Below are positions 1,998-58,150 of a stretch of DNA of 58,150 bases, piece after piece (within the stretch, counting starts at the first letter, position 1; each line of letters starts with the position of its first letter). The DNA comes from a virus (lineage: Duplodnaviria; Caudoviricetes), in the IMG/VR virus record IMGVR_UViG_3300033141_003493, positions 1-58,150 of that record; one strand, given 5' to 3'. The notes below the pieces were generated by a model. It was given only the letters and a program-made list of their open reading frames with translations, was not told the origin of the DNA and did no database searches. A program made the translations under genes and the position numbers.

Positions 1998-2084
1998 CGC
2001 TTACAATGTAACACACAGTTACGATTTTGTCAAGTCCCCGGGGCCTAGATTCGGGGATTCGTTGGAGATTTTCACAAAGTCCGC
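1998..2084. repeat. 87-bp exact direct repeat, copy 1 (copy 2 at 57534-57620)
   Basis: cgcttacaatgtaac...cacaaagtccgc identical at both loci. Confidence 0.95.
2005..2033 (-). promoter_or_regulatory. sigma70-type promoter TTGACA-17-TACATT with GTAAC-N5-GTTAC palindrome
   Basis: consensus -35 at 2033-2028, -10 at 2010-2005, 17-bp spacer; inverted repeat 2008-2022. Confidence 0.8.
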
Positions 2085-11826: not shown

Positions 11827-11851
11827 GGATAGGTGGAGGAGGAAATATCCA

Positions 11852-12679: not shown

Positions 12680-12691
12680 AGGGGTGCGGAT

Positions 12692-12862
12692 ATGCCCTAC
12701 AAACTAAGCAAAAGCGGCAAGGCGGTGCTTGTCAAGCGGGGCAATCGTTGGGTTGTGCTGAAGCGTCATCCGACACGAGAGAAGGCGAGAAAGCACGTGG
12801 CGGCGCTCAACATAAATGTGCACCATCCCGAAAAGGCTCGGAAGAAGAGAAAGAAGAGATGA
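12692..12862 (+). CDS. small basic protein (56 aa)
   Basis: MPYKLSKSGKAVLVKRGNRW...; SD GAGGGG; ATGA overlap with the next gene; below the ORF-track cutoff. Confidence 0.55.
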   Translation: MPYKLSKSGKAVLVKRGNRWVVLKRHPTREKARKHVAALNINVHHPEKARKKRKKR

Positions 12863-13966: not shown

Positions 13967-13996
13967 GCGATCCCCAATCGCCGGTGGCCTTGCCAC
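13967..13996 (-). repeat. double-hairpin repeat copy, inverted orientation
   Basis: reverse complement reads GTGGCAAGGCCACCGGCGATTGGGGATCGC. Confidence 0.85.
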
Positions 13997-14020
13997 TATA
14001 TCTTATAAGAGAGGTTGCGG

Positions 14021-15966: not shown

Positions 15967-15968
15967 CC

Positions 15969-21900: not shown

Positions 21901-24900
21901 CTAAGACCAAAGCTGACCTCATTCGTGAAGCCTCTACCGCCGTAAGGGAGAGAGAGGAGTTTGTCGGAACGCTCTTTGAGCTGGCGGACAAGGTAAAGGA
22001 CGCCGGACTGGACGCTGAGGTGGAAGGGGTTCCCCGATATGAGATTACCCCCCAGAGGTATCCCATACTTCGCGGCTTTATTGAGTCGGAGCCCGGCTGG
22101 TATGTTGCGGAAAGAGCTCAAGAAGCGTATTTGGCCGACCTCATCATTGCAGATATCCCCTTGCCCAGAAAGATTCTGCAAAGCATGGGCGACCCTCTGG
22201 GGATCGTGCTGGAGCGCATCGATGAGCGGCTAGAGGATGCCGTTGGTAAGGAGCGGGCTTTCCTTCAAGAGCAAAAGAAGCGAATCCAGGTTTTGTTGCC
22301 CCTGTCGGCAGCCGACCACGAGATAGCGACAGAGTTGCTGTCTCGGGAGAAAAAGACCTGGACCACCAGCACCGGCCCTGACGTGGCTTTGTACCAAGCC
22401 CTCAAAGAGCACGGGCTGGTCAAGGATAAGCGGGGGTTCTACGCCACGCCCCAGGGTAGCATCGTGCTCAAGAATCTGGGCACGGAGTTAGAGCCTCGTA
22501 TCAGGGTCACCATCGAACCGGCCCGCTACGTCGAGCCGTATGCCCTGCCCAAGCCGCCGCTCCTGCTGGAGGAAGAAGGGCTTCCCTATCCCCTGGAGTG
22601 GTTGCCAGAGGAAGGACGACGCGAGCCTACCGTTATCCCCATGGGTCCACAGGAACCGCCCAAACCCCCCAAACCACCCACTGTTCCGCCGGAGCCCCCC
22701 GGAGAACCCCCCAGGGAGCCACCCGAGGAGCCCGAAGAGGACTCTTTACAGAAGCTGTTCCGGGCCATGGGAATCGAGGAGCCCCTGCCGGAGGACTGGC
22801 ACCCGGTGGTCAAAAATATGTGGCAGAAGATGGTAGAGGGCACTTTTGACCGCTTTGAGCCAGCCCGCCGACTTCAGAAGGAGACCGGTATACCCATCTA
22901 TGACGAGCTGTGCCGTATGAGTGGTGTGGCGGAGCACGTCAATGTTCTCCGAATCAATGACTATGATCCCATCTTTCGGGACTTCAAAACGGTTGAAGAG
23001 AGTCTCCGCTTTTGGGCATACCTGCTGACTTACCATCTCGAAGACGTAAAGACGGCCCACCCTGATTACGAGCTACCCGCCAAGATGACTCTAGACGAAG
23101 TTCTAGATGCCCGGGCCAAGTTGCAGGCTGAATGGGGAGAGGAAAAAACCAAGACCATTGACCGTAAGGCGAGGGATTTCTGGGCGCTCAACGCCAAGAA
23201 CTTTATGAACCCGTCGGTGGAGACCGGGTATATCAGCCGGGCTCAGGCCGACACCATGCTCAAGAAGTATCCCCACTATCTTCCCCTTTATCGAGAAGGG
23301 TATGAGAATCTGGGGTTCTGGTTCGGCGTGGCTCAGGCTCGAGCATATATGCCTTCGCAGTTCAGTAAAGCCCTTTCTGAGGAGGGCTCAGAGCGGCCTC
23401 TGAGGAACATAGCCGAGGGATATTTCCAGGCTTTGTACATTCACACACAACGGAACTGGCGGAACATGGCCGCCAAGAGCTTGGTTCGAGCTTTACAACG
23501 CGCTTGCCCCGACGAGGTTCACCTCCTGAAAAAGATCGTAACTGAGGAGGGAGTAAAGAGAGCTCGGGAGTCGGTTCCACCGGAATATGGCGTGATTCGC
23601 TACCGCGAGGATGGCAATATCAAGGCCTACGTAGTGCCCAAGCCTTGGGAGATACTGGCTACTGGGGCAGATGTATACGCCATGGGTGCGATAGAAAACG
23701 CCTTCCGCACTCTGTCGGCGATCAAGCGAGCTATCGTTACTGAGTATAACCCCGCCTGGGTCGCGGTGAACATGATTTCCGACAGTCCAGAGGTGTTCTG
23801 GCGGCATCAGATTGCAGGCTTCTTTGACCCTCGTTGGTGGAAGGGCTTCTTGGGAGCGTTGACCCGAGGCGATGTCAACCAGACCAATGCCTTTATGCGC
23901 CAACGAGCTGAGGCTTACCGACGCGCTGCCGAAGCCGGAGCTTTCGCTGGAAGCATCTTTCATACTACTCTGCCGCCGGGGGCCGAGTATAAAAAGTACT
24001 CTCATGTACGAATCAAGTTCAATAGTGTAGCGGACGTGGTTCTAGCCTTGCCTAGATTGATTGCCAGGATCAACCAGGCGGTAGAGGCAGCGCCCAAGCT
24101 GGCTGCTTTTGAGAAACTGGAACGAGATCTGCTCAAGAGCGGTGCGGAGCTTGACCACGATGCTGTCGTAAGACTGGGGGCAGAGGCGGCACGTTCCACC
24201 TTCAACTGGGATATGGGTGGCAACGTCATGAAGCTTATGGGCCGAATGTTCTGGCCGATGAACGCCATGGTCCAGGTCCCCTACCAGAGTGTGCAAGCTC
24301 TTTGGGAAAAACCCTCTCGGGGCTTATGGTTGTTAGGGCTAGCATCGATCCCCACCACACTGCTTTTTGCTTACAATCGACAGTTCGATAGTTTTGCAAA
24401 GGTGCCCAGCTACGAGTATCTCAATAACTGGGTCATCATAATCGCTGAGGAAGAGCGCGAGCCCGACCCACGCTATCCGACCCAGGAAAAAGAGGTCTAT
24501 CCGGTCTGTATTGACATCCCGAAGCGAGGTTTCGTTCAGGCCCTTTCTGCCCCGTTTGAGGTTCTCTTACGAGAGATGGACGCCTCAGACCGCCACTACG
24601 TGGAGAACATCTTTGATGCGGTGTTACAGGGTGTCGCTGGGATGGTGCCCGCGCTGGCTAATCCTATAGCGGCGACTGAGCCCCACTTCTTGGGTGGGCT
24701 TTTTGCCCTGGACAGGAACTACGATGACTTTCGAAAGCAGCCTATCGTTCCCGAGGCGGAGTACACTACCCGCCCGCCAGAATGGCAGTTCGGCCCCGAG
24801 CAATCTCAACTGGCTATCGCCATCGGACAGCTATTCAAGGTATCGCCCAGGAAAGTAGAGTTTCTGTTACATGATTCCTACGGCGAGTGGGGCCGTGCCG

Positions 24901-30873: not shown

Positions 30874-32349
30874 ATGGCCTACATAAAGCCTAGTACCGGC
30901 GACACGGTAGAAGCAGAACACGTCAATCAGATAACTGACGTGCTGGACGGAACGAGCGGCGAGCCGGTGAAGCTCAAGAACAACGATTCCGTCGAGTACG
31001 TCTTGGACGTTCAGAACCTGGACACGGTGAACTCCCTCATTGCCAGATTCCGCAATGCTGCCGGCGAGACGGTCTTGGGCATTGTCAAGGAAGCGCTGAA
31101 CTTTGGCAAGCAGATCGTCTCCTCTGTGGCCACGGGTACGGCCCCCTTCTCCATTGCCAGCACTACGAAGGTAACAAATCTCAACGCGGACAAGGTAGAC
31201 GACTACGATGCACCGTTCCCATCGGCGGCCATTGCCGATGGAGCAGTAACAGAGGCCAAGATCAGCGCTGGTGCCATCACTTCCGCCAAACTTAGCTCTG
31301 GTGCCGTTACTGCCGGCAAGATTGCCACAGGTGGTGTGTCAGCCGCCGCGCAACTTGCTTCGAATGTAGTCGAGACAGCAAAGATCAAAGATCTGAACGT
31401 CACAGAAGCCAAGATTGCCACTGGCGCAGTGACAGAGACCAAGATCAGTACCGGCGCTGTAACGGAAGGCAAGATCGCCGACGGTGCGGTTACCAATACT
31501 AAGATTGCCTCTGGCGCTGTTACCTCCACGAAACTTGGTTCCGGCGCGGTGACCGCCGGCAAGATCGGCACAGGCGGGGTGAGTGCGGCGACGCAACTTG
31601 CTGACGGTATTGTAACCGAGGCCAAGATCGCCAATGGCGCTGTTACCTCCACAAAACTTGGTTCTGGTGCCGTTACTGCCGGCAAGATTGCCACAGGTGG
31701 TGTGTCTGCTGCAACACAGTTGGCTTCTAACGTAGTAGAGACAGCCAAGATCAAGGACGGTGCTGTTACCGAAAGCAAGATTGCCAATGAAGCAGTGACT
31801 ATCACCAAGATTGCTGACGGTGCCGTCACCAGCGCCAAGATTGTGGGTGGATCCGTGACAGAAGCCAAGATTGCCACGGGCGCTGTTACCTCTACGAAAC
31901 TTGCCTCTAACGCGGTAAGTAGTAGCAAGATTGCCACTGCCGCAGTGAACGCTGCGCATCTGTGTAGCGACATCGTGGATGATACCAAGGTGGGCAACCG
32001 GGTCCCGCAGTTTTATCGACGGCAGGGAGGGGATGCTACTAACTGGGACGTTACGGGAACCACTACCTATATGCCTGGCGCTGTGCGGATGGTTGGTGGT
32101 CGCATACAGATACACTTCAGCGATACACAGAACCTCGCAACGGTAGTCATTGGCTATGGCGTAACATTCTCCGGTCGCCCCCTGCTATTCTATTCCCTAT
32201 TCACTGATCTGTCCCAAAGCACACTCGAAGCAGTTCACATCGAACTGACCAACGCATCGACCACCGGTGTAACGATTTACGGCAAGCGCGCCAGCACATC
32301 GGGCACACTTGACCTGTATATGCACTGGCTTGCTATTGGCCCCGAGTGA
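30874..32349 (+). CDS. tail fibre protein with GAVTxxKIA repeats
   Basis: ~25 ten-residue repeats, TNLNADKVD motif, gp53-like C-terminal WLAIG. Confidence 0.8.
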   Translation: MAYIKPSTGDTVEAEHVNQITDVLDGTSGEPVKLKNNDSVEYVLDVQNLDTVNSLIARFRNAAGETVLGIVKEALNFGKQIVSSVATGTAPFSIASTTKVTNLNADKVDDYDAPFPSAAIADGAVTEAKISAGAITSAKLSSGAVTAGKIATGGVSAAAQLASNVVETAKIKDLNVTEAKIATGAVTETKISTGAVTEGKIADGAVTNTKIASGAVTSTKLGSGAVTAGKIGTGGVSAATQLADGIVTEAKIANGAVTSTKLGSGAVTAGKIATGGVSAATQLASNVVETAKIKDGAVTESKIANEAVTITKIADGAVTSAKIVGGSVTEAKIATGAVTSTKLASNAVSSSKIATAAVNAAHLCSDIVDDTKVGNRVPQFYRRQGGDATNWDVTGTTTYMPGAVRMVGGRIQIHFSDTQNLATVVIGYGVTFSGRPLLFYSLFTDLSQSTLEAVHIELTNASTTGVTIYGKRASTSGTLDLYMHWLAIGPE

Positions 32350-43438: not shown

Positions 43439-44296
43439 ATGCCTCCGATCATTACTAACAAGCACGGCTTACCAGAGCCCATAGTCAGAGCTGCCGAAGA
43501 CAATCAACATCGCACCAAGACCGGTGGTATCTCGGTGACCCAGCTCATTCTGCCGCCGCGCATTCGCATACTACAAGAACGCCACGACTACGAGCTAGAC
43601 GTTTCCGAGATGCTCTGGATGCTCGCAGGAACAGCACTTCACAAAGTCCTACAAGAGTATGAAGACGATGCACATTCCGAACTGTTCCTATGGGCGGACT
43701 TCACCCAAAACCTCAAGCTAGGTTCTTACCTGCTAACCGGAAACATAGACCGGCTAAAGAACGGGGTCCTCTCCGACTGGAAGTATACGTCGGTCTGGAG
43801 CGTCATCTATGGTCAGGACGACTGGGAACCACAAGTAAACCTGTATGCCGAACTTGCGCGACGCAACGGGCTGCGCGTTGATAGACTAGAAGTAGTGGCG
43901 TTTTTGCGAGACTGGAACAGCAAGAAAGCACAGTACGATACCACCTATCCACCATGCCAGCTGGCTATAATCCCCATCGAAATGTGGAGCCAAGAGCGCT
44001 GCCAAGAGTACATCCTGGAGCGGTTCCGGCTTCACCGCGACGCCGAAAAACTGGCCGACGAAGAGCTGCCCATGTGTACACCCGAGGAAAGGTGGGAAAA
44101 ACCAACAGAGTATGCGGTTATGAAGAGAGGAAGGCAATCGGCCGTGAGAGCGCACTTTGAGACTGAACAAGAGGCGGTGCTTTACGCAAAGCAAAACAAT
44201 ATACAGGGGGCCTACATCGAGATGCGTCCGGGCAAGTGCGCCCGTTGCGAGGGCAACTACTGTCACGTAGCAGAAATATGCGAGCGCCTGCAATGA
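43439..44296 (+). CDS. PD-(D/E)XK (RecB/Cas4-like) exonuclease
   Basis: GTALH, GNID, DWKYT, QVNLY, C-terminal Cys cluster. Confidence 0.8.
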   Translation: MPPIITNKHGLPEPIVRAAEDNQHRTKTGGISVTQLILPPRIRILQERHDYELDVSEMLWMLAGTALHKVLQEYEDDAHSELFLWADFTQNLKLGSYLLTGNIDRLKNGVLSDWKYTSVWSVIYGQDDWEPQVNLYAELARRNGLRVDRLEVVAFLRDWNSKKAQYDTTYPPCQLAIIPIEMWSQERCQEYILERFRLHRDAEKLADEELPMCTPEERWEKPTEYAVMKRGRQSAVRAHFETEQEAVLYAKQNNIQGAYIEMRPGKCARCEGNYCHVAEICERLQ

Positions 44297-46061: not shown

Positions 46062-47186
46062 ATGGTAACAATGAGAGAGTTCTTGCAGTGGGAAGCCGTC
46101 AGCAAAGATACCATTGACTTCAAGAAGGCCTATGTGGACATGGCCGGCGGTGACCTAATAGCCGGCCTGATGTTGAGCCAAATCGTGTTCTGGCACCTGC
46201 CGGATAAGCGTGGGGGAAGCAAGCTGCGCGTAGAAAGAGACGGCTACCAATGGATAGCCAAGAAGCGCACCGATTGGTACGAAGAGTGTCGTATCAGTGA
46301 CCAGCGAGCTCGGCGCGCCCTCAAGCTTCTAACGGAGCTCAACCTCATCGAAACCAAAGTGTACAAGTTTGCGGGCGTCCCCACAACTCATATCCGCATC
46401 CTGCCCGAGCCATTCCTGGCCGCTTGGGAGAACGTCGTCAGATCGCTGTACTCAGATGGGGGTCAATCAGATCGTGAAGGTGAACCAGATGAGACCAATG
46501 GTTTTGACCGAAAGGACCAAGACCTCTTGGGCGAAAGAACCAAGTCCTCTTGGTTGATTTCACCAAGTCCTCTTACAGAGACTACTACAGAGATTACTAC
46601 AGAGAGAGAAGGTCCGGCTTCGCCGGGTTCTCCCCCTGCTGATTCTTTAGCTAAAGTAGAAGCTTTACCTCAAGCTTCTCGTAAGAAAGCTCCAGCAGGG
46701 GGAGAAGTAGAGAAGATCGAGAAGCTAGAGAAGACCGAGAGGGTAAGAAAAACCGAGAAGCTAAAGAAGAAGAAGAGCGTTCTGACCAAGCATCCGGCTA
46801 TACAAGCGTTTCGTAGTGCTGCTTACAGATACCCACCTCGCGCCTGGTACAAGGAAGTTGTAGAGGCCATTGGTGAGAGAGAGGAGGATGTAGGGCGGTG
46901 GCGCGCCCTCGTGCACGACTGGTGTGGGCGGGGTTGGAACCCGGGCAACGTCGCGGGGATGCTGGAGAAGTTCCGCAAGGAGAAGGCGTCTCATGTGATC
47001 GAGGGGTATCTGGGAGGTGTTTGCGGATGCGATCCGCCGTCACCAGACGAGATTCGTCCTGATGGTCGCATAGTTCGCAAGGGCTATCTCGGGGGTGTTT
47101 ACGGATGTGATCCGCCGTCGCCAAACGAGATTCGTCCTGATGGCCGTGTGGTTCGCAAGGGGTATCTCGGAGGTGTTTGTGGATGA
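46062..47186 (+). CDS. replication initiator protein (wHTH) with C-terminal tandem repeats
   Basis: AGLMLSQIVFW...WIAK...W..E motif, TETTTEITTE linker. Confidence 0.75.
   Translation: MVTMREFLQWEAVSKDTIDFKKAYVDMAGGDLIAGLMLSQIVFWHLPDKRGGSKLRVERDGYQWIAKKRTDWYEECRISDQRARRALKLLTELNLIETKVYKFAGVPTTHIRILPEPFLAAWENVVRSLYSDGGQSDREGEPDETNGFDRKDQDLLGERTKSSWLISPSPLTETTTEITTEREGPASPGSPPADSLAKVEALPQASRKKAPAGGEVEKIEKLEKTERVRKTEKLKKKKSVLTKHPAIQAFRSAAYRYPPRAWYKEVVEAIGEREEDVGRWRALVHDWCGRGWNPGNVAGMLEKFRKEKASHVIEGYLGGVCGCDPPSPDEIRPDGRIVRKGYLGGVYGCDPPSPNEIRPDGRVVRKGYLGGVCG
47003..47186 (+). repeat. 78-bp tandem repeat x2.3
   Basis: units start at 47003, 47081, 47159; encodes GYLGGVxGCDPPSPxEIRPDGRxVRK. Confidence 0.9.
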
Positions 47187-48194: not shown

Positions 48195-49748
48195 ATGTGG
48201 ACGATAGTCCGCGGTAACGCTCTGCACTTGCCGTTGGCGGATAGGTCCGTGCAGTGCGTTGTGACCTCGCCACCGTACTGGGGTCTGCGGGTATATGCTG
48301 GTGTTCAGCCGTCGGTATGGGGCGGTGATCCTGAGTGCGAGCACGACTGGGATGTAGCGTGCTATCGGCGTAGAAGTAACGATGACAAAGGGGGCGGGAA
48401 GCAACTTACCAACGTGGGCTCTACCGGGCGCGATGTGCCTATAGAGTATGCTACTTGTTCCCATTGCGGTGCGTGGTATGGCTGTCTGGGTCTGGAACCG
48501 ACGCCGGGTCTTTATGTGCAGCATCTGGTAGAGGTTTTTAGAGAGGTGTGGCGTGTGCTGCGCCCGGACGGGACCCTGTGGTTGAACCTGGGAGATACGT
48601 ACAACTCGAACCCGTCCTGGGGGCGTGGGCGGAGTACCCTAGAAAGCCGGCGACAAAGTGTTATTCCCCCGAAACCTGCGGGCGGCTGGTATGACCATAG
48701 CAAGACGGTCGATCTCAAGTCCAAAGACTTGGTAGGAATCCCCTGGCGTGTGGCTTTCGCGCTGCAAGCTGAGGGTTGGTACCTTCGCAGCGATATCATC
48801 TGGGCCAAGGGGCTGTCGTTCTGCCCGGCCTACAGTGGTTCCGTCATGCCCGAGTCGGTTGCTGATCGCCCCACATCCGCATACGAACATGTCTTCTTGC
48901 TGAGCAAAAGTGTGCGCTATTACTACGACAACGATGCGGTGAGGGAGCCGCAGGCTGGTTATATGTACAGGGGGCGTGGAGGTCTCAGTAAGGCGGATTA
49001 TGAAAATCGTAAATGGACAACGCGCTCCGATGGTCTCTCTCGTCCACCGATGACCATGAATAATCGTCAGTATCATGCCGCTGGGCGCAATCTGCGGAAC
49101 GTATGGGCTATCAATCCTAGCCCTTTTCGTGGCGCGCATTTCGCTACGTTCCCGCCCGCTCTTGTGGAGTGCTGTATCAAAGCGGGCACAAGTGAGTGTG
49201 GATGCTGCCCGCATTGCGGTGCGCCGTGGGAGCGGGTGGTGGAGAGAGAGGCGCTTGGCGAGAGGGATGACACAGGTCGTACACACGGCTTGGCCCCGCA
49301 ACGCCTGAATAGCCCTGGCGCGCCGCCTGAGCGCGGGTGGCAAGCAGCCCATACCACTATTGGCTGGCAACCAACCTGCGATTGCCCAGAACATGACCCG
49401 GTTCCGTGTGTCGTTCTGGACCCCTTTGCCGGTGCGGGGACTACGTTGCTGGTAGCGGACCGTTTGGGAAGGCATGGCGTGGGCGTGGAGTTGAGCGGTG
49501 AGTACTGTGATATGGCGCGTAAGCGCTGTTATCAGGATGCGCCATTGTTAGCATGGACCAGAGGGCAAGATGATTGTCGGGGTAACGCCGGAGATGTGGG
49601 AAGAGGTGTGCGCCCTGGCCCGTCGCAGGCATTTGCCCAAGGAGAGGCTGGGTATCAGGGGGGCCTGGCAGGGGTCGTCGCTGAAGACGCACCAGATGGG
49701 GCTCCTGGGCGAGCTGGCCGTGGCTCGGGTGTTGGCCTTGCAGATTGA
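48195..49748 (+). CDS. beta-class N4/N6 DNA methyltransferase
   Basis: TSPPY, WLNLGD, HFATFP, VLDPFAGAGTT. Confidence 0.9.
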   Translation: MWTIVRGNALHLPLADRSVQCVVTSPPYWGLRVYAGVQPSVWGGDPECEHDWDVACYRRRSNDDKGGGKQLTNVGSTGRDVPIEYATCSHCGAWYGCLGLEPTPGLYVQHLVEVFREVWRVLRPDGTLWLNLGDTYNSNPSWGRGRSTLESRRQSVIPPKPAGGWYDHSKTVDLKSKDLVGIPWRVAFALQAEGWYLRSDIIWAKGLSFCPAYSGSVMPESVADRPTSAYEHVFLLSKSVRYYYDNDAVREPQAGYMYRGRGGLSKADYENRKWTTRSDGLSRPPMTMNNRQYHAAGRNLRNVWAINPSPFRGAHFATFPPALVECCIKAGTSECGCCPHCGAPWERVVEREALGERDDTGRTHGLAPQRLNSPGAPPERGWQAAHTTIGWQPTCDCPEHDPVPCVVLDPFAGAGTTLLVADRLGRHGVGVELSGEYCDMARKRCYQDAPLLAWTRGQDDCRGNAGDVGRGVRPGPSQAFAQGEAGYQGGLAGVVAEDAPDGAPGRAGRGSGVGLAD

Positions 49749-51961: not shown

Positions 51962-52235
51962 GTTTAGGGTTCTGCGGCGTGACAACTTCCGCTGCGTGGA
52001 CTGTGGTGCTTATCCCTGTTCGACCGTTCATCATATCATCAGCCGTCGGTACAAGGGTGCGTGGGACGAGAAGAATATGGTGACCTTGTGTCAGCGTTGT
52101 CATCTTGAAGGGCCGGGGCGTTCCGGTGCGCATTCTCACGAAGCCCGGAGGCGTCACCTAGAGTATCTGGAGCGTCGCTTCGGCTATGTCTACTCTGGGG
52201 GTCCTTGGCTGGAAGCGCTGGAAAGGGCCTCTTGA
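51939..52235 (+). CDS. HNH endonuclease
   Basis: RDNFRCVDCG...HHI...N..TLCQRCH. Confidence 0.85.
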   Translation: MTSSDAVRFRVLRRDNFRCVDCGAYPCSTVHHIISRRYKGAWDEKNMVTLCQRCHLEGPGRSGAHSHEARRRHLEYLERRFGYVYSGGPWLEALERAS

Positions 52236-52552
52236 GTTTTGGGCTTGCCCGGTATCAGCGCTAGGCAGATGAAGAAGAAGAGATTGAGTACCGGAACGAA
52301 AGTTACCAGCACCCATGCCCCAGATGAGCGCATATCTTTCAGGCGTCGCAGTACGAGGGTGATGACGCCGATGGTGCCTAGGATGCTCAGGCTGGTTGGT
52401 GGATAGGCGCTCAGATCAGCCCCTAGGCTCCAGTCTATCACTGTGATGACTAGCGCCAGGATGAGCAGATACACGTAGCCCAGGACGAAAGCCAGGCGAC
52501 CTGCGGGCCGTCTTGCGTCAAACACCCTGAGCGGGTTCAGATAGTCGTTCAT
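52190..52552 (-). CDS. DUF805-family membrane protein
   Basis: GR..F, RRLKD..SGAW, VPVLN...IPG motifs. Confidence 0.75.
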   Translation of the reverse strand: MNDYLNPLRVFDARRPAGRLAFVLGYVYLLILALVITVIDWSLGADLSAYPPTSLSILGTIGVITLVLRRLKDMRSSGAWVLVTFVPVLNLFFFICLALIPGKPKTQEALSSASSQGPPE

Positions 52553-52592
52553 TTAGTTCCCCCTGTACCTTACCAACTGAATAGAATCTACT

Positions 52593-52633
52593 CTACACCA
52601 GAGCAACGCCGGTGCTCGACGTTGCTCTGGTGT
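52593..52633. terminator. 15-bp stem hairpin ending the leftward early operon
   Basis: TACACCAGAGCAACG ... CGTTGCTCTGGTGTA. Confidence 0.7.
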
Positions 52634-52647
52634 ACAGCGGTATGTGT

Positions 52648-52941
52648 TTAGCTGCACCTCCTTTCTGCGGATGCGACCACGGTTACACCGGCCTCTGCGA
52701 AGGCGCGCTCGACCTCGCCGATGTAGTTCCAGGCGGCTGCGCCGTCCTTGGACATCTCGATGATCGGTGTGTCTGCGGGATAGATTAGCGCGTTGCCCGG
52801 CCTACTTCGTGGACGGTCCATCGTGAAGAAGGCGAACACGCTGTGGGCTCGCTTGTCTGCCGGTAGTTCGTCGAGGACACGAGCCGCGATGTTCTGTGCC
52901 TCTTCGAGCGTGACGCCCTTTACGTAGATTGTGCTGCGCAT
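52648..52941 (-). CDS. hypothetical early protein
   Basis: SD AGGAGG, ATG 52941. Confidence 0.65.
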   Translation of the reverse strand: MRSTIYVKGVTLEEAQNIAARVLDELPADKRAHSVFAFFTMDRPRSRPGNALIYPADTPIIEMSKDGAAAWNYIGEVERAFAEAGVTVVASAERRCS

Positions 52942-53312
52942 GTTAGACCTCCTACTACTCTGCTGTCCGTATATGGCCCGCCGGAGTTTTGTCCACCGTG
53001 CCAACCGTGTAATACCTCGATCAGTACCCTCTCTCCGTCAATGGTTACCTCCCAGGTTTCGATCATATCCTGGTAGGTAACGCGGTCTAGGCCTGCGAGC
53101 TCATACGTGTCCCCGGCGCGCTTGGCGATTAGACGGGCGGTTATGACGTGGCCGTCCTCTTTGAGACACTGGATAAGCGTATCTAAAGACACGGCTCGGG
53201 GATTCCACACGGAGTTGTCCTGCTGTATGGACTCCCAACGAAGATTGTCTATCTCCCGTTGGACCGCTTGGGGCAGAGTAAGAGTCTCGCCCAGGCTGTT
53301 TGTTCTCTGCAT
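52920..53312 (-). CDS. hypothetical early protein
   Basis: SD AGGAGG, ATG 53312. Confidence 0.6.
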   Translation of the reverse strand: MQRTNSLGETLTLPQAVQREIDNLRWESIQQDNSVWNPRAVSLDTLIQCLKEDGHVITARLIAKRAGDTYELAGLDRVTYQDMIETWEVTIDGERVLIEVLHGWHGGQNSGGPYTDSRVVGGLTCAAQST

Positions 53313-53313
53313 G

Positions 53314-53706
53314 TCACACCTCCTCATAACCCTCTTCGGAGAGCACATCCAAAAACTCTGCATCTACATTGTGCTCAAGTTCCGCGCCCCGAGCAGATAT
53401 GAGCGCTCGGAGATGTAGAGTATCGTTCGGCCACATGGCCAGCAAGTCAGAATACGTGGCGCAGCGGTGCTTCTGCGTAAAGATGGCCCAGCCTTCTTCC
53501 CAGCTGCCAACCTTCTCGTATCCGAGTATCTCCATCCGGCGATCAGCACGGTCGGCAATCTCGGCCCAGACAGGTCGCTCGTCTGGAGGCCTGTCCGGTA
53601 ACTCGTCTGGCCTGGGTAAGGTGAGCGCAACTGCACCGTTCTTGCCGAGCGTACATTCCACCCCATACGCCAGGCCCTCTACATAAACTGTCATGTGTCG
53701 GTTCAT
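53314..53706 (-). CDS. hypothetical early protein
   Basis: 130 aa, SD GGAGG. Confidence 0.65.
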   Translation of the reverse strand: MNRHMTVYVEGLAYGVECTLGKNGAVALTLPRPDELPDRPPDERPVWAEIADRADRRMEILGYEKVGSWEEGWAIFTQKHRCATYSDLLAMWPNDTLHLRALISARGAELEHNVDAEFLDVLSEEGYEEV

Positions 53707-53716
53707 CTCAACCCTC

Positions 53717-54130
53717 CTAGCCGAACTGCACTAGGTAGTCTGGCCCGCCCTCTACCCGAATGATCGCGTTGTACGGTCCCCACCCCAGGACCTGTATGTC
53801 CAGGATCTCGTAGTCGCTCTCGGCAATAGCGGAGATATCCTCATCATCCGATGCGTCGCCGACTGGCTCCACCAACCATGGCGGCCGTTCATAGGGCCGG
53901 ATCATCTGCGCCGCCATGATGTTGCATTGGCGCAGGTCGTCCTCAATGTACTGTCGGACGACGTGCTTGATGTACTCGCGTTCCTCGTCGGAGCGGCCCT
54001 CTCCACAAAACCGCGTCAGGTCCGCAGCGTAGGATGCTGGAGAGTACCCCTGGCCGAGGTACTCTCGCAGCGTAGTCGTCTGGGCAGAGTACTGCTCTCC
54101 CACCATCTGCCGCAACTGTTCTCTGTTCAT
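53717..54130 (-). CDS. hypothetical early protein (paralog of 71-301 with C-terminal extension)
   Basis: MNREQLRQMVGEQY; SD GGAGG. Confidence 0.7.
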   Translation of the reverse strand: MNREQLRQMVGEQYSAQTTTLREYLGQGYSPASYAADLTRFCGEGRSDEEREYIKHVVRQYIEDDLRQCNIMAAQMIRPYERPPWLVEPVGDASDDEDISAIAESDYEILDIQVLGWGPYNAIIRVEGGPDYLVQFG

Positions 54131-54131
54131 G

Positions 54132-54326
54132 TCACACCTCCAGTCCATATGCTTTGCGGAACCACGTTTTGGCTTCGGCGAGACTGTTCGCCTTGGCCAG
54201 CACGGTGTCTCGGTCGAGACGGTCACCCTCCGGTCTTGCTCCCACTACGTATCCGCCCCTGCTGGTCAATACCCAGTACACTTGCTCGCCTTCCGAGATT
54301 GTCTCTAGGATGTCGATCTTGTCCAT
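54132..54326 (-). CDS. hypothetical early protein
   Basis: 64 aa, SD AGGAGG. Confidence 0.6.
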   Translation of the reverse strand: MDKIDILETISEGEQVYWVLTSRGGYVVGARPEGDRLDRDTVLAKANSLAEAKTWFRKAYGLEV

Positions 54327-54434
54327 GTAAGCCCTCCTGGTGCTACAGACATCCGCGGATGATGATGAGGATGGCCAAGCCTACGAAGTAGGCTGTAAGG
54401 TATGGCATTGCTGCCGATGGCGGCTTTCGTCTCA

Positions 54435-54674
54435 TCATAACCGTACTGCCTCCTCCGGGTATAGATAGGCTTCTACGTCGTCTCTGGCTAACTCCATGGC
54501 CTCATCTTCCGCCGTTGCCTCATCGTAGCCTTCGGCCAGCAGTTGCGCAAGTCGTATTGCGTATCTGTCCTCGTACATTCGGTCAAGGTATTGGCGATAG
54601 GACCGCGCAGCAGCGGCGCGGAGCGCCTCACCATCCGGGCGGTACCCGAGTATCCGCCTCAAGTTTTTCATCAT
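54435..54674 (-). CDS. hypothetical acidic early protein
   Basis: 79 aa, SD AAGGAG. Confidence 0.6.
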   Translation of the reverse strand: MMKNLRRILGYRPDGEALRAAAARSYRQYLDRMYEDRYAIRLAQLLAEGYDEATAEDEAMELARDDVEAYLYPEEAVRL

Positions 54675-55038
54675 CGTATATCTCCTTGGTTATTACCAGG
54701 GGGTATACCCCCGGCTCGTGCCGATATGCCCGTCGCCCGATGCGGATAAAGTACTCGGGCAGCGCATCGGCTAGCTTCTCTGCCCGCAGTCGCACATCTG
54801 CCTCGCAGCTCTCGTAGTGCTGTTTGGCTTCCCTGGCCCGACTCTGGAGTTCATCAAGCCGCTCTCGCCAGGCGTAAAAGTGCTCGATGCTTTCAAAGTA
54901 CTCTGGGGCGTTCTGTATGTGATAGTCCCGCGCCTGTGCTGCCTTGTCGGCGGCGGTCTTGGCCTCGGTCAGTCTTTCCTTGGCCGAGGCCCACTTCGCA
55001 AGAAGCCCCTCCAGTTGGTCCTGTGTTACGTCGTACAT
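54628..55038 (-). CDS. hypothetical coiled-coil early protein
   Basis: SD AAGGAGG, ATG 55038. Confidence 0.6.
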   Translation of the reverse strand: MYDVTQDQLEGLLAKWASAKERLTEAKTAADKAAQARDYHIQNAPEYFESIEHFYAWRERLDELQSRAREAKQHYESCEADVRLRAEKLADALPEYFIRIGRRAYRHEPGVYPLVITKEIYDDEKLEADTRVPPGW

Positions 55039-55067
55039 GTTACCTCCTTTGGTAATCGGTTGATGGT

Positions 55068-55313
55068 TCATGGTGCTCCCCTCATCCTGAGGCCGACGTA
55101 CCCGCCGGCTCGGTACGCTGCTTGTGCTTCCTGGTATCGTTCTCTGCTTCTCTCGTACCAGTGCACGTGGGGGTTATTCTCACTGAAGACCACGAATGCA
55201 CTCTGAGCGTCGATGCCCTCGTACTCGCAAGCTCGCGCCCATGCTAGGCGTGCCGCCTCTTGTAGCAGGCTAAGATACTGCTCGGCTTGACGGTTCAGTT
55301 GCTTCTGGTTCAT
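55068..55313 (-). CDS. hypothetical early protein
   Basis: AW..AC..EGID..S.FVVFS..NP motif; SD AGGAG. Confidence 0.6.
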   Translation of the reverse strand: MNQKQLNRQAEQYLSLLQEAARLAWARACEYEGIDAQSAFVVFSENNPHVHWYERSRERYQEAQAAYRAGGYVGLRMRGAP

Positions 55314-55666
55314 GATTCTCTCCTGATCGCTTCCAACTGCCACGGCTGCCAGCGCTTCCAGTGGTTGGGCGGGCATACGCCTGACCAATCGCAGACGATA
55401 CAGCCCCGCGAATCGCAGATCGGGCAGCTTACGACTCGGGCACCTGGTACCTCCGGGTCTGGTGCCCAGTCGGTACCGCCGAGGATTCGCTCCCCCGTCT
55501 TGGTCTGTGCAGCCCAGTAGACAATGCTAAGCCCTCTCCGCCTCGCTTTCTCCCTTTGCTGGCTGATCTCGACTCGGTTCATTGCCGGCATCAACTCGTG
55601 TGTTTCTGGTGGGTCTGTTGGTCTTCTGGCGTAGCCGAGCACGTGATAGGTATAGCTGCGGCCCAT
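55310..55666 (-). CDS. zinc-finger early protein
   Basis: CPICDSRGCIVCDWSG; SD AAGGAGG. Confidence 0.65.
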   Translation of the reverse strand: MGRSYTYHVLGYARRPTDPPETHELMPAMNRVEISQQREKARRRGLSIVYWAAQTKTGERILGGTDWAPDPEVPGARVVSCPICDSRGCIVCDWSGVCPPNHWKRWQPWQLEAIRRES

Positions 55667-55706
55667 GATAACCTCCTTGTGGGCCTATTGTCGTTCGGCC
55701 TTGTGA

Positions 55707-56033
55707 CTAGCCGATCTGAACCTTGACGCCCTCAGTGTCTACGGTCCACTCTGCGGGGTCTTCGTTGCTGCTCTTGGTAAAGCCCCGGTTTATCCAGAGG
55801 CCGCCAGGCACGCACTCGGGGTGATGTTGAGCGTCAAAGCGTTGCGCGGCCTGGCAGATATACCGCCATGTCTTTTCGTGCACCCGTGGCCAGCCTTCGA
55901 TTTGGCGCACCTGCTGCCATGGTATACCCGTGGCCTCTATCACGTAGCGGTAGAGGTCCAAGAGCCAGTCGCCCTGGTTGCTTGCGTCTGCGAATGCGGC
56001 GTCGATTCGTTCCTTGCTCAACTTTACGATCAT
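55707..56033 (-). CDS. hypothetical early protein
   Basis: 108 aa, SD AAGGAGG. Confidence 0.65.
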   Translation of the reverse strand: MIVKLSKERIDAAFADASNQGDWLLDLYRYVIEATGIPWQQVRQIEGWPRVHEKTWRYICQAAQRFDAQHHPECVPGGLWINRGFTKSSNEDPAEWTVDTEGVKVQIG

Positions 56034-56115
56034 GTGAACCTCCTTGCCGGCCTATTGTCGCCCGACCGGCGGGGCTTGTGTTGCTCGGCCTTGGCGCTCA
56101 CGGTGAGCCGCCGGG

Positions 56116-56319
56116 CTAGTTTGTGGGTTTTACCGTTACCGTGATTCGCTTGGCCGACGCTCCGCTCTGGCTCCCCCACCTCTCCACTACCCATTTTTGG
56201 AGGTAGAGGCTGCCGATTCTTATCGGTTCGCCCGGTCCCGGCACCTCCTCGTATCGCAATGCGTTTTTGGTCTCTTTTGCGACCTCAAACGCTACGGTGA
56301 TACCGTCGTGTTCGGTCAT
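56116..56319 (-). CDS. small beta-rich early protein
   Basis: KETKNALRYEE...IGSLYLQK; SD AGGAGG. Confidence 0.65.
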   Translation of the reverse strand: MTEHDGITVAFEVAKETKNALRYEEVPGPGEPIRIGSLYLQKWVVERWGSQSGASAKRITVTVKPTN

Positions 56320-56681
56320 GCTGTTACCTCCTCGGCGTCTACCCGTAGCAGCAGATCGATCACCTGCTCGTAGATATGTGGATACCAACGGCAGCGCTCC
56401 AGCAGCTCCATCATCTGGCCCTGTTTCTCGGCCGGAGCCTGTGCGACCAGTTCCTTACCCCAGGCGATTAGCGCCCGCTCCGCCTCGATTAGCTCGTCGA
56501 GCGCTTCGCGGTATCCAGATTCATCATCAAGTCGTACCGCAGCCTCGGCGTAAGCCTGCAGCTGGTCATCTGTCGCGTGTCGGGGCAGCGGCGGCAGTTC
56601 TCCCCTCCGCCGGTTCCGCTCTTGCTCGGCGACCTCCAGGGCCGCCTTAGCCCAGATACAGCGCAACTGTACGGCGTTCAT
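56316..56681 (-). CDS. hypothetical helical early protein
   Basis: SD AAGGAGG, ATG 56681. Confidence 0.6.
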   Translation of the reverse strand: MNAVQLRCIWAKAALEVAEQERNRRRGELPPLPRHATDDQLQAYAEAAVRLDDESGYREALDELIEAERALIAWGKELVAQAPAEKQGQMMELLERCRWYPHIYEQVIDLLLRVDAEEVTA

Positions 56682-56878
56682 TGCTCCCTCCTTAGCCAAT
56701 CGCTGAGAACGGTTGTGCCAGTTTCGGCGTCGGCTGCTGCCTGGCACATGGCATTTAGCAACTCCCGCGCCCGAGCGTCGGCGGCCATTGCCCTGATCTC
56801 TCGCTCAGACGCGCCCAGGTGCATAGCCTCCGCCACTATCTCCTGACGTATCTCTATCGCCCGCTGAGTCATTCTCAT
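56678..56878 (-). CDS. hypothetical early protein
   Basis: 66 aa, SD GGGAGG. Confidence 0.6.
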   Translation of the reverse strand: MRMTQRAIEIRQEIVAEAMHLGASEREIRAMAADARARELLNAMCQAAADAETGTTVLSDWLRREQ

Positions 56879-56915
56879 GTGTCGCCTCCCTTCCTTTGCC
56901 GGAGGTGGGGCGGGG

Positions 56916-57191
56916 TTACACCCGCCTCACCTCATAAGCAACCAATGCCGCGCCCGCCGCGTCCATCTCGGCCGGCGTCAAGTCCTGCCCCCGCTGCTCC
57001 GGTCGGAGCCGGGGCAGGTCGATGGTGACCACCCGGGCGGCTTCCGCCGCCAGGTGGAGGGGCAGCGTCCCGTAAACGACACGGCCCCGAACGTCTTCGG
57101 CGGTAGCGTGCTCGATCACGCGCCCCGTGATTCCGTGCCGGCGCAGCCACTCAACCGCGCCGGCATGACGCGAAACGATCACGATATCCAT
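56916..57191 (-). CDS. csx16: Csx16 (Cas_VVA1548)-family protein, candidate cOA ring nuclease
   Basis: SRHAGAVEWL, GTLPLHLAA, RGQDLTPAEM...GA.L..Y.V motifs; SD AGGAGG. Confidence 0.8.
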   Translation of the reverse strand: MDIVIVSRHAGAVEWLRRHGITGRVIEHATAEDVRGRVVYGTLPLHLAAEAARVVTIDLPRLRPEQRGQDLTPAEMDAAGAALVAYEVRRV

Positions 57192-57233
57192 GTTGTACCT
57201 CCTCGCTGCTGAGGGCCTGCTTGACAGCATACG

Positions 57234-57500
57234 CTACCAATGCCAGGGTGGCGCGAAGCGATGATATTCATGTCCCCCCTCCTTTGGCGCTTTGGTCCAG
57301 AACAAGCGCCATGTCAAGCCGTCGGGTATCTGGCGCGGTGAGATATCCCCCGGCAGGCTGTCGGGTGGGAAGGTCCGGATTCTTATCCTTCCCTCTTGCC
57401 GGTAGAGGATATAATCGCCGCCGGTCCCCGGGTCTGTTGCGATTGCTCCAGGCCCGCCGCCTTCAAGCATAACGTGAAGCCATACCTCGGTCGGGATCAT
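57234..57500 (-). CDS. first gene behind promoter copy 2 (paralog of 1739-1963)
   Basis: MIPTEV...PDGLTWRLFW; SD AAGGGGG. Confidence 0.65.
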   Translation of the reverse strand: MIPTEVWLHVMLEGGGPGAIATDPGTGGDYILYRQEGRIRIRTFPPDSLPGDISPRQIPDGLTWRLFWTKAPKEGGHEYHRFAPPWHW

Positions 57501-57533
57501 GGTCCGCCCCCTTTCGCCTATGGCTGTCTCACT

Positions 57534-57620
57534 CGCTTACAATGTAACACACAGTTACGATTTTGTCAAGTCCCCGGGGCCTAGATTCGGGGATTCGTTG
57601 GAGATTTTCACAAAGTCCGC
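57534..57620. repeat. 87-bp exact direct repeat, copy 2, containing the leftward TTGACA-17-TACATT promoter
   Basis: identical to 1998-2084. Confidence 0.95.
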
Positions 57621-57633
57621 AGGGAGGGCGAGG

Positions 57634-57822
57634 ATGGAACGCTTGGAGTTTGTGGCCGTACTCGCGCCAATACAATCTGCTGTCAAGATTCACCCCGAAG
57701 GCGGCGGGCGTCTGATCTTCGACGTAGACGATCAGAGCCTCCGGCGGATATGGCCGGTGCTGCCGGATTGGCGCGACATTTTGCTAAGGGTTACGGTGGA
57801 GCCTATGCCCGGCGCTCGGTAA
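57634..57822 (+). CDS. small hypothetical protein
   Basis: SD GGAGG, MERLEFVAVL... Confidence 0.55.
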   Translation: MERLEFVAVLAPIQSAVKIHPEGGGRLIFDVDDQSLRRIWPVLPDWRDILLRVTVEPMPGAR

Positions 57823-57826
57823 AACT

Positions 57827-57855
57827 GGAGGCCCTAGCTCTATGCTAGGGCCTCC
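57827..57855. terminator. hairpin between convergent genes
   Basis: GGAGGCCCTAGC-TCTAT-GCTAGGGCCTCC. Confidence 0.7.
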
Positions 57856-57865
57856 AACCGGCGGC

Positions 57866-58150
57866 TTAGGCCCAGCGCTCCACCCACGACCGTTCAAGTG
57901 TTTCGGCTGCTTGCTCGATGGTCTTCGGGTCATCTGGTGATAGGCCCCATTCTCCCGGGTGTTCTCGCATGTATCGGGCACACTCTTCAAAGTATTCTCG
58001 ATCATGTGCTGCAACCTTGGGGTTTAGCAGCCATGCCAGATTAGACAGGTCATGGTACGTCAGTTCCGCCGCACAGGGCAGCTGTGAGACGTACCGACCG
58101 ATTACGTCTTTGGTTCGTAGGTTGTAGCCCGCCGCCCGTAAGTATTTCGC
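57866..58150 (-). CDS. 5'-truncated hypothetical protein (runs off the window end)
   Basis: open frame of 94 codons AKYLRAAGYNLRTKD...ERWA*. Confidence 0.6.
   Translation of the reverse strand, partial: AKYLRAAGYNLRTKDVIGRYVSQLPCAAELTYHDLSNLAWLLNPKVAAHDREYFEECARYMREHPGEWGLSPDDPKTIEQAAETLERSWVERWA

What the first reader, a model, noticed from the sequence alone, without database searches (positions are those of the whole stretch)
56916..57191. Stand-alone phage Csx16: candidate anti-CRISPR ring nuclease distinct from AcrIII-1
Seen: a 91-aa protein with SRHxGAxEWL, GTLPxHLAA and RGxxLxxxEM motifs, second gene behind the strong early promoter, with no cas genes or array in the genome. Known: Csx16 is a type III CRISPR accessory family assigned as a cyclic oligoadenylate ring nuclease, whereas the classic viral ring nuclease AcrIII-1 is DUF1874. 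Inference: a host off-switch captured by the phage to destroy cA4 and silence Csx1/Csm6-type effectors.
Basis: partly seen in the sequence, partly recalled or inferred. Interest (0 to 1): 0.85.

Follow-up and report, generated by a model that had tools for sequence, protein, structure and literature searches.

The report
Phage-borne Csx16 ring nuclease gene
An uncultivated tailed phage carries a small gene of the Csx16 family, enzymes shown to destroy the cA4 alarm signal of type III CRISPR, so it is most likely an anti-CRISPR; the idea is already in print for a few phages but has never been tested in a cell.

Summary
A 91-aa ORF (57191..56916, minus strand, GAGGAGG six bases upstream) matches Pfam Cas_VVA1548/Csx16 at 77.3 bits against a cut-off of 25. 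It keeps the family's near-invariant residues. It is the second gene behind a sigma-70-like promoter in a tailed-phage record with no Cas10, Cmr2, Cas1 or CRISPR-like array. That record is only about 74% complete.

Csx16 was shown to be a cA4-specific ring nuclease, and the same paper counted Csx16 in 2 of 28,114 phage genomes (PMC12409355).

New here:
- 50 IMG/VR viral contigs encode Csx16. Sixteen are at least 90% complete and none has Cas10.
- Four plasmids carry it with no cas gene annotated nearby.
- A branch with 99/87 support, backed by a 4-residue indel, separates these mobile-element copies from the three checked cas-locus copies. A recent capture from a cas locus is therefore not supported.

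Activity, early timing and the host are all untested. Verdict: a new member of a known kind, of moderate interest.

The parts
56916..57191 (-). Csx16-family CDS, 91 aa plus stop (P0001)
   Evidence: Translation. Pfam PF09652 at 77.3 bits. AlphaFold2 model pLDDT 97. Near-invariant family residues retained.
57198..57204 (-). Ribosome-binding site GAGGAGG, 6 nt upstream of the ATG at 57191
   Evidence: Read directly from the sequence.
57541..57569 (-). Sigma-70-like promoter TTGACA-17-TACATT with TG extension, copy B, which drives the operon holding Csx16
   Evidence: 10 of 12 consensus positions. An exact second copy lies elsewhere in the window.
57234..57500 (-). First gene of the operon, an 88-aa ORFan whose N-terminus resembles that of the gene behind promoter copy A
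   Evidence: no family match. Both copies are followed by a ribosome-binding site and an ATG with similar first codons. Both genes match the same L002 ORF.
52190..56878 (-). Rest of the leftward block of small ORFs downstream of Csx16. Almost all lack a family match.
   Evidence: ORF lists. PHROGs and Pfam scans gave only one weak phrog_10381 hit.
2005..2033 (-). Exact second copy (A) of the same 29-nt promoter, inside an 87-nt identical block, heading another leftward block of small ORFs
   Evidence: (family D15), (2 matches in the window, 0 in 100 shuffles).

Best explanation
The gene encodes a small homodimeric Csx16-type ring nuclease made by an uncultivated tailed phage.

Proposed mechanism:
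- The gene is transcribed soon after infection from a consensus-like promoter, together with a string of small accessory genes.
- Two subunits pair through the last beta-strand and the helix that carries the LPLHLAA motif.
- The pair forms a two-fold-symmetric pocket lined by R8/H9, H46 and the loop residues R67/G68.
- The pocket binds cyclic tetra-adenylate (cA4) made by the host's Cas10 and cuts it to linear products without a metal.
- Cutting cA4 keeps CARF or SAVED effectors (Csx1/Csm6, Can1/2, Cad1, CalpL and the like) switched off, so the protein acts as an anti-type-III-CRISPR.

Shown here: family membership, retention of the conserved residues, purifying selection, stand-alone position in a phage, and recurrence of such copies on viruses and plasmids.

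Taken from the literature for another family member: cA4-specific cleavage in EDTA buffer.

Inferred: catalysis by this protein, early timing, and the anti-CRISPR role.
For: Family:
- PF09652 at 77.3 bits.
- R8, H9, G41, P44, H46, R67 and G68 are near-invariant in 50 homologues. In 86 domain rows they are kept in 83, 84, 86, 86, 73, 82 and 84 rows respectively. The window protein has all of them.

Fold: the AlphaFold2 model has pLDDT 97 and pTM 0.86, with five strands flanked by helices. This is the topology the literature gives for Csx16.

Dimer:
- Complex prediction with two copies scored 0.61, against 0.00 for the best of 3 controls. That mark was reached by 20 of 30 proteins solved as pairs of one chain and by 1 of 23 solved as single chains. 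The runs agree in at least 96% of contacts and the partner's pLDDT is at least 92.
- The interface holds residues 42, 44-46, 48-49, 53-54, 56, 58 and 84-91.
- Natural tandem Csx16-Csx16 proteins exist: a 261-aa protein on an Allomeiothermus silvanus plasmid, and 17 of the best 150 family representatives have two matched stretches.

Activity of the family: Csx16 fully degraded cA4, but not cA6 or cA3, in EDTA buffer (PMC12409355, passages read).

Selection: dN/dS is 0.15 against the copy in related phage L002. That copy is 88.6% identical in protein, whereas the other shared early genes are 37-71% identical.

Stand-alone mobile-element context:
- The window has no Cas10, Cmr2 or Cas1.
- 0 of 50 Csx16-bearing IMG/VR records have Csm1 or Cmr2, including 0 of the 16 rated at least 90% complete.
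- None of the 25 Pfam families listed (of 29 found) for 144 flanking ORFs is a Cas family.
- Csx16 is the only window gene shared with 51 of the 52 loci that hold it, which is how a mobile accessory gene behaves.
- Four plasmids carry it among small ORFs, SSB or type IV secretion genes, with no cas gene annotated within 8 kb.
Against: - No assay has been done on this protein or on any member of its mobile-element clade. I could not learn which Csx16 was tested biochemically, because that detail is in a supplement that is closed.
- TIGR02620 scores just under its cut-off.
- Foldseek found no match at E<=1e-3 in the PDB or in BFVD. CARF-domain (Cad1) hits reached only E=0.15, so the CARF-like fold is not confirmed by my fold searches.
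- The host is unknown. The large terminase subunit (TerL) is 28% identical to its best match among isolated phages, and the only names among metagenome relatives are Chloroflexota MAGs. Whether the host has a cA4-signalling type III system could therefore not be checked.
- The promoter is a consensus match only.
- The record is about 74% complete.
- A related family, Csx15, turned out to be mainly a cA4 binder (abstract and passages of 10.64898/2026.01.21.700848).
Confidence: 0.65

Rival explanations
1. The protein binds cA4 but acts mainly as a sponge, or as a very slow enzyme, sequestering the signal rather than destroying it.
For: Csx15 was predicted alongside Csx16 to be a ring nuclease. 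It proved to be a good cA4 binder and a very slow nuclease (10.64898/2026.01.21.700848, passages read). Phage sponges for other cyclic nucleotides are cited in the same literature.
Against: A Csx16 family member turned over a 100-fold excess of cA4 in 1 h. The window protein keeps the conserved His and Arg residues. The same authors argue that sponging is a poor answer to the large amounts of cOA that type III systems make, and they saw no Csx15 in phages.
Confidence: 0.12
2. It degrades or senses a cyclic nucleotide for a purpose other than anti-type-III-CRISPR. Examples would be countering another signalling defence such as CBASS-type cA3, or tuning a phage- or prophage-encoded cOA-dependent effector.
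For: The mobile-element clade is separated from cas-locus copies by a 99/87 branch and a 4-residue indel beside the predicted interface helix, so its specificity could differ. Broad-spectrum ring nucleases exist (Crn4; PMC12830947, passages read).
Against: The tested Csx16 kept its cA4 specificity even at a 10-fold higher enzyme concentration. No CARF effector, Cas10 or other signalling gene turned up in the window or beside the viral copies.
Confidence: 0.1
3. The contig is host DNA or a chimera, and the gene is an ordinary cas-locus Csx16 fragment.
For: IMG/VR contigs can include host flanks, and the record is incomplete.
Against: Terminase, portal, tail fibre, DnaD-like loader, exonuclease and methyltransferase genes fill the record. 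Csx16 sits between phage ORFan genes that are shared with a second phage, which has terminal repeats. There is no Cas10, Cas1 or array.
Confidence: 0.02
4. The GTLPLHLAA motif marks an ankyrin-type repeat protein rather than a nucleotide-binding enzyme.
For: A profile of the family hit designed ankyrin repeat proteins in the PDB at E down to 3.7e-11. One 2,314-aa protein with 17 matches to profile positions 32-57 appeared in the family search.
Against: Those matches cover only about 20-27 residues of the motif. Pfam gives no ankyrin hit. The confident model is a beta-alpha sandwich, not a helical repeat.
Confidence: 0.01

Closest known systems
Csx16 (Pfam PF09652 Cas_VVA1548; NCBIfam TIGR02620), the cA4-specific ring nuclease of type III CRISPR loci
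   Same: A single domain of about 90 aa, matched end to end. Same conserved SRH, G-x-LP-x-H and RG motifs. Same five-strand beta-alpha topology (literature). Predicted homodimer.
   Different: It is not in a cas locus. It lies on the mobile-element side of a 99/87 branch. It lacks the 4-residue insertion found in 19 of 19 rows on the cas side. It falls 1.5 bits under the TIGR02620 cut-off.
AcrIII-1 / Crn2 (DUF1874, Pfam PF08960 STIV_B116-like), the classic viral ring nuclease
   Different: A different sequence family. PF08960 has no hit in the protein, in the window or in the 50 Csx16-bearing viral records. My Foldseek searches listed no AcrIII-1 structure among their best matches.
Csx16 genes already annotated in isolated viruses: Methanobacterium viruses Drs3 and PhiF3, and Bacillus phage Shbh1 gp42
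   Same: Stand-alone Csx16-like genes among small genes near a genome end or in an early-type region. Shbh1 gp42 lies about 4 kb from an ocr-domain anti-restriction gene.
   Different: Only 47% (Drs3) and 32% (Shbh1) identical to the window protein. PhiF3 was found only with a cas-side query. The hosts are archaea or Bacillus. None has been tested.
Crn4b and Csx20 copies in phages and plasmids
   Same: Cellular ring-nuclease families that also occur on phages and plasmids and are proposed, untested, to be anti-CRISPRs (PMC12830947; PMC12409355).
   Different: Unrelated or only distantly related folds. Crn4 has a broad substrate range.

Membership tests
Csx16 (PF09652 / TIGR02620) | Pfam profile match above the gathering score over the whole domain | tested here: met
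   77.3 bits against 25, profile positions 2-90 of 91. The six-frame search of the record gives 76.4 bits.
Csx16 (PF09652 / TIGR02620) | NCBIfam TIGR02620 match above its curated cut-off | tested here: not met
   44.8 bits against 46.35, E=1.1e-11, full length. This is a narrow miss, consistent with a divergent clade.
Csx16 (PF09652 / TIGR02620) | Conserved polar residues (His, Arg) of the SRH, LPxH and RG motifs | tested here: met
   R8, H9, H46, R67 and G68 are present. In 86 domain rows they are kept in 83, 84, 73, 82 and 84 rows.
Csx16 (PF09652 / TIGR02620) | Core fold of a five-stranded sheet flanked by helices (derived Rossmann, CARF-like), forming a dimer | tested here: inconclusive
   The model has five strands and four helices at pLDDT 97. 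The homodimer score is 0.61 against 0.00 for the best control. However, Foldseek found no PDB or BFVD match at E<=1e-3, and the best CARF hit (Cad1) was E=0.15.
Csx16 (PF09652 / TIGR02620) | cA4-specific, metal-independent ring nuclease activity | not testable with these tools
   Shown for one family member in PMC12409355. Which member it was is given in a supplement that I could not open.
Csx16 (PF09652 / TIGR02620) | Encoded within or beside a type III CRISPR-Cas locus | tested here: not met
   The 58-kb record has no Csm1, Cmr2 or Cas1 match and no array. This is expected for a viral copy.
AcrIII-1 / Crn2 (DUF1874, PF08960) | Profile match to PF08960 | tested here: not met
   PF09652 is the only Pfam family at E<=10. 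The window has no PF08960 match.
Anti-CRISPR (functional class, type III) | Encoded by a virus or plasmid outside any cas locus | tested here: met
   Phage hallmark genes are present and cas genes are absent. The same holds for 50 of 50 related viral records as regards Cas10.
Anti-CRISPR (functional class, type III) | [quoted passage not shown] | not testable with these tools
   There is only a promoter-like consensus site. The host is unknown.
Ankyrin repeat | Repeated helix-turn-helix units of 33 residues | tested here: not met
   There is a single short motif look-alike, no Pfam ankyrin hit and a beta-alpha model.

The most novel reading that the evidence does not exclude
Csx16 on mobile elements is not a scatter of recent thefts from cas loci. 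It is an old, separate lineage that circulates among tailed phages (including roughly 200-kb genomes), archaeal viruses and conjugative plasmids. It is marked by a shorter helix-to-strand link than the cas-locus form and often carries extra N- or C-terminal pieces. This lineage would be a second widespread family of viral and plasmid ring-nuclease anti-CRISPRs, far commoner in uncultivated phages than the count of 2 in 28,114 isolates suggests. The cas-locus off-switch may itself derive from it, as has been argued for AcrIII-1/Crn2.
Probability: 0.4. Interest if true: 0.6.

Novelty: new member of a known kind. Interest (0 to 1): 0.38.

Why it matters
Type III CRISPR defence runs on cyclic oligoadenylate signals. 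AcrIII-1 (DUF1874) is the classic, tested viral ring-nuclease counter-measure, and a viral SAVED ring nuclease has been described more recently (PMC12751052, seen only as a search listing and abstract start). If the mobile-element form of Csx16 is a fast cA4 nuclease in vivo, a further family does the same job across bacterial and archaeal viruses and plasmids. That would bear on how often type III signalling is defeated in nature, and on where the cellular off-switches came from. For this window alone the gain is modest: it adds one more, well-preserved example from an uncultivated phage lineage.

Tried and rejected
1. Fold searches. Foldseek of the confident model against the PDB and BFVD gave no match at E<=1e-3. 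They neither confirm nor refute a CARF or AcrIII-1 relationship.

2. PDB profile search. The 60 rows listed were all designed ankyrin repeat proteins, hit through the LPLHLAA motif, and I rejected them as a short-motif artefact. No solved Csx16 was among those 60; a further 161 matches were not shown.

3. PHROGs. No family matched Csx16 or 8 of the 9 neighbours; one neighbour gave a weak phrog_10381 hit.

4. Host assignment.
- The window has no near match in the phage collection.
- The large terminase subunit (TerL) is 28% identical to Microbacterium and Gordonia phages.
- The portal protein has no match.
- TerL relatives in metagenomes carry only two Chloroflexota names, at 51-53% identity.
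- The host is left open.

5. Lar-like zinc ribbon fused to some close homologues. PF14354 scores 19.9-20.6 bits, under its 28.6 cut-off, so I do not use it as evidence.

6. Co-occurrence with AcrIII-1. It is 0 of 50, but AcrIII-1 is so rare that this says nothing.

7. Genome-contig scan. It failed with the broad alignment. With a narrower one it used a single pattern and found 3 loci, so it is not a count of cellular copies.

8. Circular closure of the record. The minus-strand ORF at the right end does not continue across the joined ends, and there is no terminal repeat. The record is a fragment.

10. Neighbour scan. Four HTH_3 and three pentapeptide-repeat proteins among 144 flanking ORFs are too few to claim an Aca-type partner.

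Full report
**1. What is there**

The window is a whole IMG/VR virus record: 58,150 bp, linear, rated 74% complete by CheckV. It is a tailed phage. PHROGs recognise:
- a large terminase subunit (3783-5129)
- a portal (5194-7389)
- a tail fibre (30874-32349)
- a DnaD-like loader (46062-47186)
- an exonuclease (43439-44296)
- a DNA methyltransferase (48195-49748)

It has no close cultivated relative. There is no megablast match for 52000-58150. The large terminase subunit (TerL) is 28% identical to Microbacterium and Gordonia phages. The portal has no match.

The finding's ORF is real.
- On the minus strand, the ATG at 57191 is preceded by GAGGAGG six bases upstream. It gives 91 residues ending at 56916.
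- Pfam gives a single hit, PF09652 Cas_VVA1548, at E=1e-21 and 77.3 bits against a cut-off of 25, covering positions 2-90 of 91.
- NCBIfam TIGR02620 (Csx16) aligns end to end but scores 44.8 bits, just below its 46.35 cut-off.

**2. Setting in the phage**

The gene is second in a leftward block of small ORFs (57500 down to about 52190).
- Nine of these ORFs were scanned. None had a Pfam match, and there was one weak PHROG match.
- Upstream lies the only sigma-70-like site in 56500-58150: TTGACA-17-TACATT with a TG extension, matching 10 of 12 positions, at 57569..57541.
- The same 29-mer occurs a second time, exactly, at 2005-2033. It sits inside an 87-nt identical block. Each copy is followed by a ribosome-binding site and an ATG that opens a gene with a similar N-terminus.
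- The phage therefore uses one promoter twice, each time to head a leftward run of small genes.

'Strong' and 'early' are inferences from consensus and position. Nothing here measures expression.

The record has no Csm1, Cmr2 or Cas1 match, no AcrIII-1-family match, no tRNA and no evenly spaced repeat array. Its ends do not join into a circle, so roughly a quarter of the genome is unseen.

**3. Is the protein likely to work?**

Conservation:
- A search of 5.8 billion proteins gave 105 homologues at E<=1e-3 among 153 candidates. Of these, 104 carry PF09652.
- In a 50-sequence alignment, G41, P44 and R67 are invariant. R8, H9, G11, W15, G36, V39, L43, H46, L47, A48, G68, M76, G80 and A81 are at least 90% conserved.
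- The window protein has every one of these residues.

Structure and pairing:
- AlphaFold2 with that alignment gives pLDDT 97 and pTM 0.86. The model has five strands alternating with helices, which is the topology described for Csx16 in print.
- Two copies were predicted to pair with a score of 0.61, against 0.00 for the best of 3 controls. The mark was reached by 20 of 30 proteins solved as pairs of one chain and by 1 of 23 solved as single chains. The runs agree in at least 96% of contacts and the partner's pLDDT is at least 92.
- The symmetric interface uses the last strand (84-91), residues 53-58, and the helix carrying P44, L45, H46, A48 and A49.
- Nature makes covalent versions of this pair. 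One is a 261-aa tandem Csx16-Csx16 on an Allomeiothermus silvanus plasmid. In addition, 17 of the best 150 family representatives have two matched stretches.

Selection:
- Against the copy in the related phage L002, dN/dS is 0.15 with dS 0.58.
- Csx16 is 88.6% identical between the two phages, while the other shared early genes are 37-71% identical.

**4. What is known**

Hoikkala and colleagues (PMC12409355; I read passages, not the supplements) report the following:
- A Csx16 and a Csx20 fully degrade a 100-fold excess of cA4 in EDTA buffer.
- Csx16 stays cA4-specific at tenfold higher enzyme concentration.
- Csx16 occurs in 68 type III loci, always with cA4-dependent effectors.
- Among 28,114 phage genomes, AcrIII-1 is in 36, Csx20 in four and Csx16 in two.

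A review (PMC8284326, passage read) records the earlier prediction, and a partial similarity of Csx16 to DUF1874.

My own tblastn of 50,697 phage records found three isolates:
- Methanobacterium viruses Drs3 and PhiF3, both annotated 'putative CRISPR-associated protein'
- Bacillus phage Shbh1 gp42, annotated with a 'CRISPR related domain'

Full-text searches returned the following:
- 'Csx16': 20 papers, of which 16 were listed
- 'VVA1548': 1 paper
- ring nuclease + anti-CRISPR + metagenom + viral: 19 papers

The listings and the passages I read report no in vivo or in vitro test of a virus-borne Csx16. So the idea is in print and the test is not.

*(a) Frequency on viruses.*
- A pattern scan of IMG/VR found 79 candidate stretches, of which 50 encode a Csx16 relative.
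- All 50 have a full-length domain ORF.
- Twelve of the records have direct terminal repeats and 16 are rated at least 90% complete.
- None of the 50 has a Csm1 or Cmr2 match, while the same models ring in 6 and 5 of 14 control genomes.
- I scanned 144 ORFs flanking these genes. None of the 25 Pfam families listed (of 29 found) is a Cas family. The commonest are HTH_3 (4 ORFs) and pentapeptide repeats (3 ORFs).
- Apart from L002, no locus shares any neighbour with the window. The gene travels alone.

*(b) Plasmids.* Eight PLSDB records match, and I looked at seven.
- Three are true cas loci. Aeromonas media has cmr1-6, cas10, cas6, a CARF protein, csx16 and csm6. Allochromatium vinosum and A. 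tepidum have csm6, csx16 and cas1, with cas2 also in A. vinosum.
- Four have no cas gene annotated within 8 kb. They sit among type IV secretion genes, SSB genes or runs of small ORFs. These are A. silvanus, Deinococcus proteolyticus, Paenibacillus polymyxa pSC2 and an uncultured archaeal plasmid.
- PLSDB's gene tables are incomplete, so this last point is provisional.

*(c) MAG loci.* The three loci found in species genomes also look mobile. One has an NrS-1-type polymerase domain, DnaB, Ro60 and TnpB. Another has ParB and an integrase. The third, L053, was not examined.

*(d) Tree.*
- A maximum-likelihood tree of 82 domain rows over 95 columns (careful search) has a branch with ultrafast bootstrap 99 and SH-aLRT 87. 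Four long or odd rows were dropped: P0099, L056, L059_d2 and L051.
- One side of that branch has 19 rows: all 3 verified cas-locus copies, 14 rows of unknown context and 2 viral rows.
- The other side has 63 rows: 49 viral rows including the window, 4 plasmid rows without cas genes, 3 MAG rows and 7 of unknown context.
- A quick tree of all 86 rows showed the same split at SH-aLRT 98, with P0093 on the cas side.
- An indel agrees. The stretch between window residues 49 and 58 is 14 residues long in 19 of 19 cas-side rows. It is 10 residues long in 65 of the other 67 rows, counting the four dropped rows among the 67.

*(e) Family size.* The family has 2,973 clusters at 50% identity with E<=1e-3, and 2,014 with E<=1e-10. 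At least one ankyrin-type false positive is among them.

Caveats on the tree:
- Only three cas-locus copies were verified, and all are from Gammaproteobacterial plasmids.
- The viral rows come from a pattern-based scan.
- The alignment is short.
- The tree is unrooted.

**6. Mechanism and rivals**

The best reading (confidence 0.65) is that the phage makes a dimeric, metal-independent cA4 ring nuclease that removes the Cas10 signal before CARF or SAVED effectors act.
- The family assignment is near certain.
- Catalysis rests on homology and on the retained His and Arg residues.
- The anti-CRISPR role rests on context and on analogy with AcrIII-1.

Rivals:
- A cA4 sponge or slow enzyme, as for Csx15: 0.12.
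- Another cyclic-nucleotide target or a regulatory role: 0.10.
- Host contamination: 0.02.
- An ankyrin-like protein: 0.01.

The host could not be named. The presence of a cA4-signalling type III system in it is therefore assumed, not shown.

**7. Verdict**

The family and the candidate role hold.
- It is a new member of a known kind.
- The wider pattern is the part worth following up: a mobile-element lineage of Csx16 that is common in uncultivated viruses and on plasmids.

Noticed in passing
window 1944-2104 and 57480-57640 (minus strand): An 87-nt block holding the whole promoter-like site is duplicated exactly. Each copy is followed by a ribosome-binding site and an ATG opening a gene with a similar N-terminus (MIPTEV / MLPSEV). 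The -10 region overlaps a short palindrome, TTACA-A-TGTAA, which could be an operator.
   Followed up: partly
window 3167-3752 (also 3785-3808 and 5161-5184): Seven irregularly spaced copies of a 34-nt GC-rich motif (GTGGCAAGGCCACCGGCGATTGGAAATCGCATCG, 68-100% identical) lie just upstream of the large terminase gene. It is not a CRISPR array, because the spacing is 22-191 nt. It may be a packaging or regulatory repeat (families D12 and D14).
   Followed up: no
window 7894-10938: Units of 120-123 nt (about 41 aa) repeat many times across two adjacent ORFs (7984-10026 and 10053-11078). Their starts are also preceded by a duplicated 47-nt segment (families D1-D4 and D20). PHROGs gave only weak matches of unknown function.
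   Followed up: no
window 15969-25790: A single 3,273-aa ORF in the tail region has Pro/Glu-rich internal repeats around 19284-20639 (families D6 and D8-D13). It is probably a giant tape-measure or tail protein. I did not examine it.
   Followed up: no
L059 (Allomeiothermus silvanus plasmid pMESIL02), locus 7998-8783: A 261-aa protein made of two full Csx16 domains in tandem, encoded next to type IV secretion genes with no cas gene annotated within 8 kb. Tandem forms are 17 of the best 150 family representatives.
   Followed up: partly
proteins P0014, P0039, P0007, P0013, P0038; loci L009, L010, L026, L031: Many close relatives of the window protein carry extra pieces. Some have a C-terminal CxxC...CxxC zinc ribbon that resembles Lar only below cut-off. 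Others have a conserved N-terminal extension of about 60 aa. Some viral ORFs of 266-395 aa hold no other recognised domain, though their starts come from a crude ORF call.
   Followed up: partly
L062 (Deinococcus proteolyticus plasmid pDEIPR02), locus 1-16282: Csx16 sits in a long one-directional run of small hypothetical genes with two SSB genes, a RES-domain gene and a lytic transglycosylase. The layout is reminiscent of a conjugative-plasmid leading region that carries anti-defence genes. That comparison is recalled, not tested.
   Followed up: no
L024 and L029 (IMG/VR records of 199 kb and 178 kb): In two jumbo-sized viral records, Csx16 lies directly downstream of an ORF of about 1,900 aa (locus positions about 175-5900) that I did not characterise.
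   Followed up: no
family profile A1, positions 32-57: The G-x-LPLHLAA-E motif of Csx16 mimics the ankyrin repeat consensus closely enough to pull designed ankyrin proteins out of the PDB at E=3.7e-11. This is a trap for profile searches with this family.
   Followed up: yes
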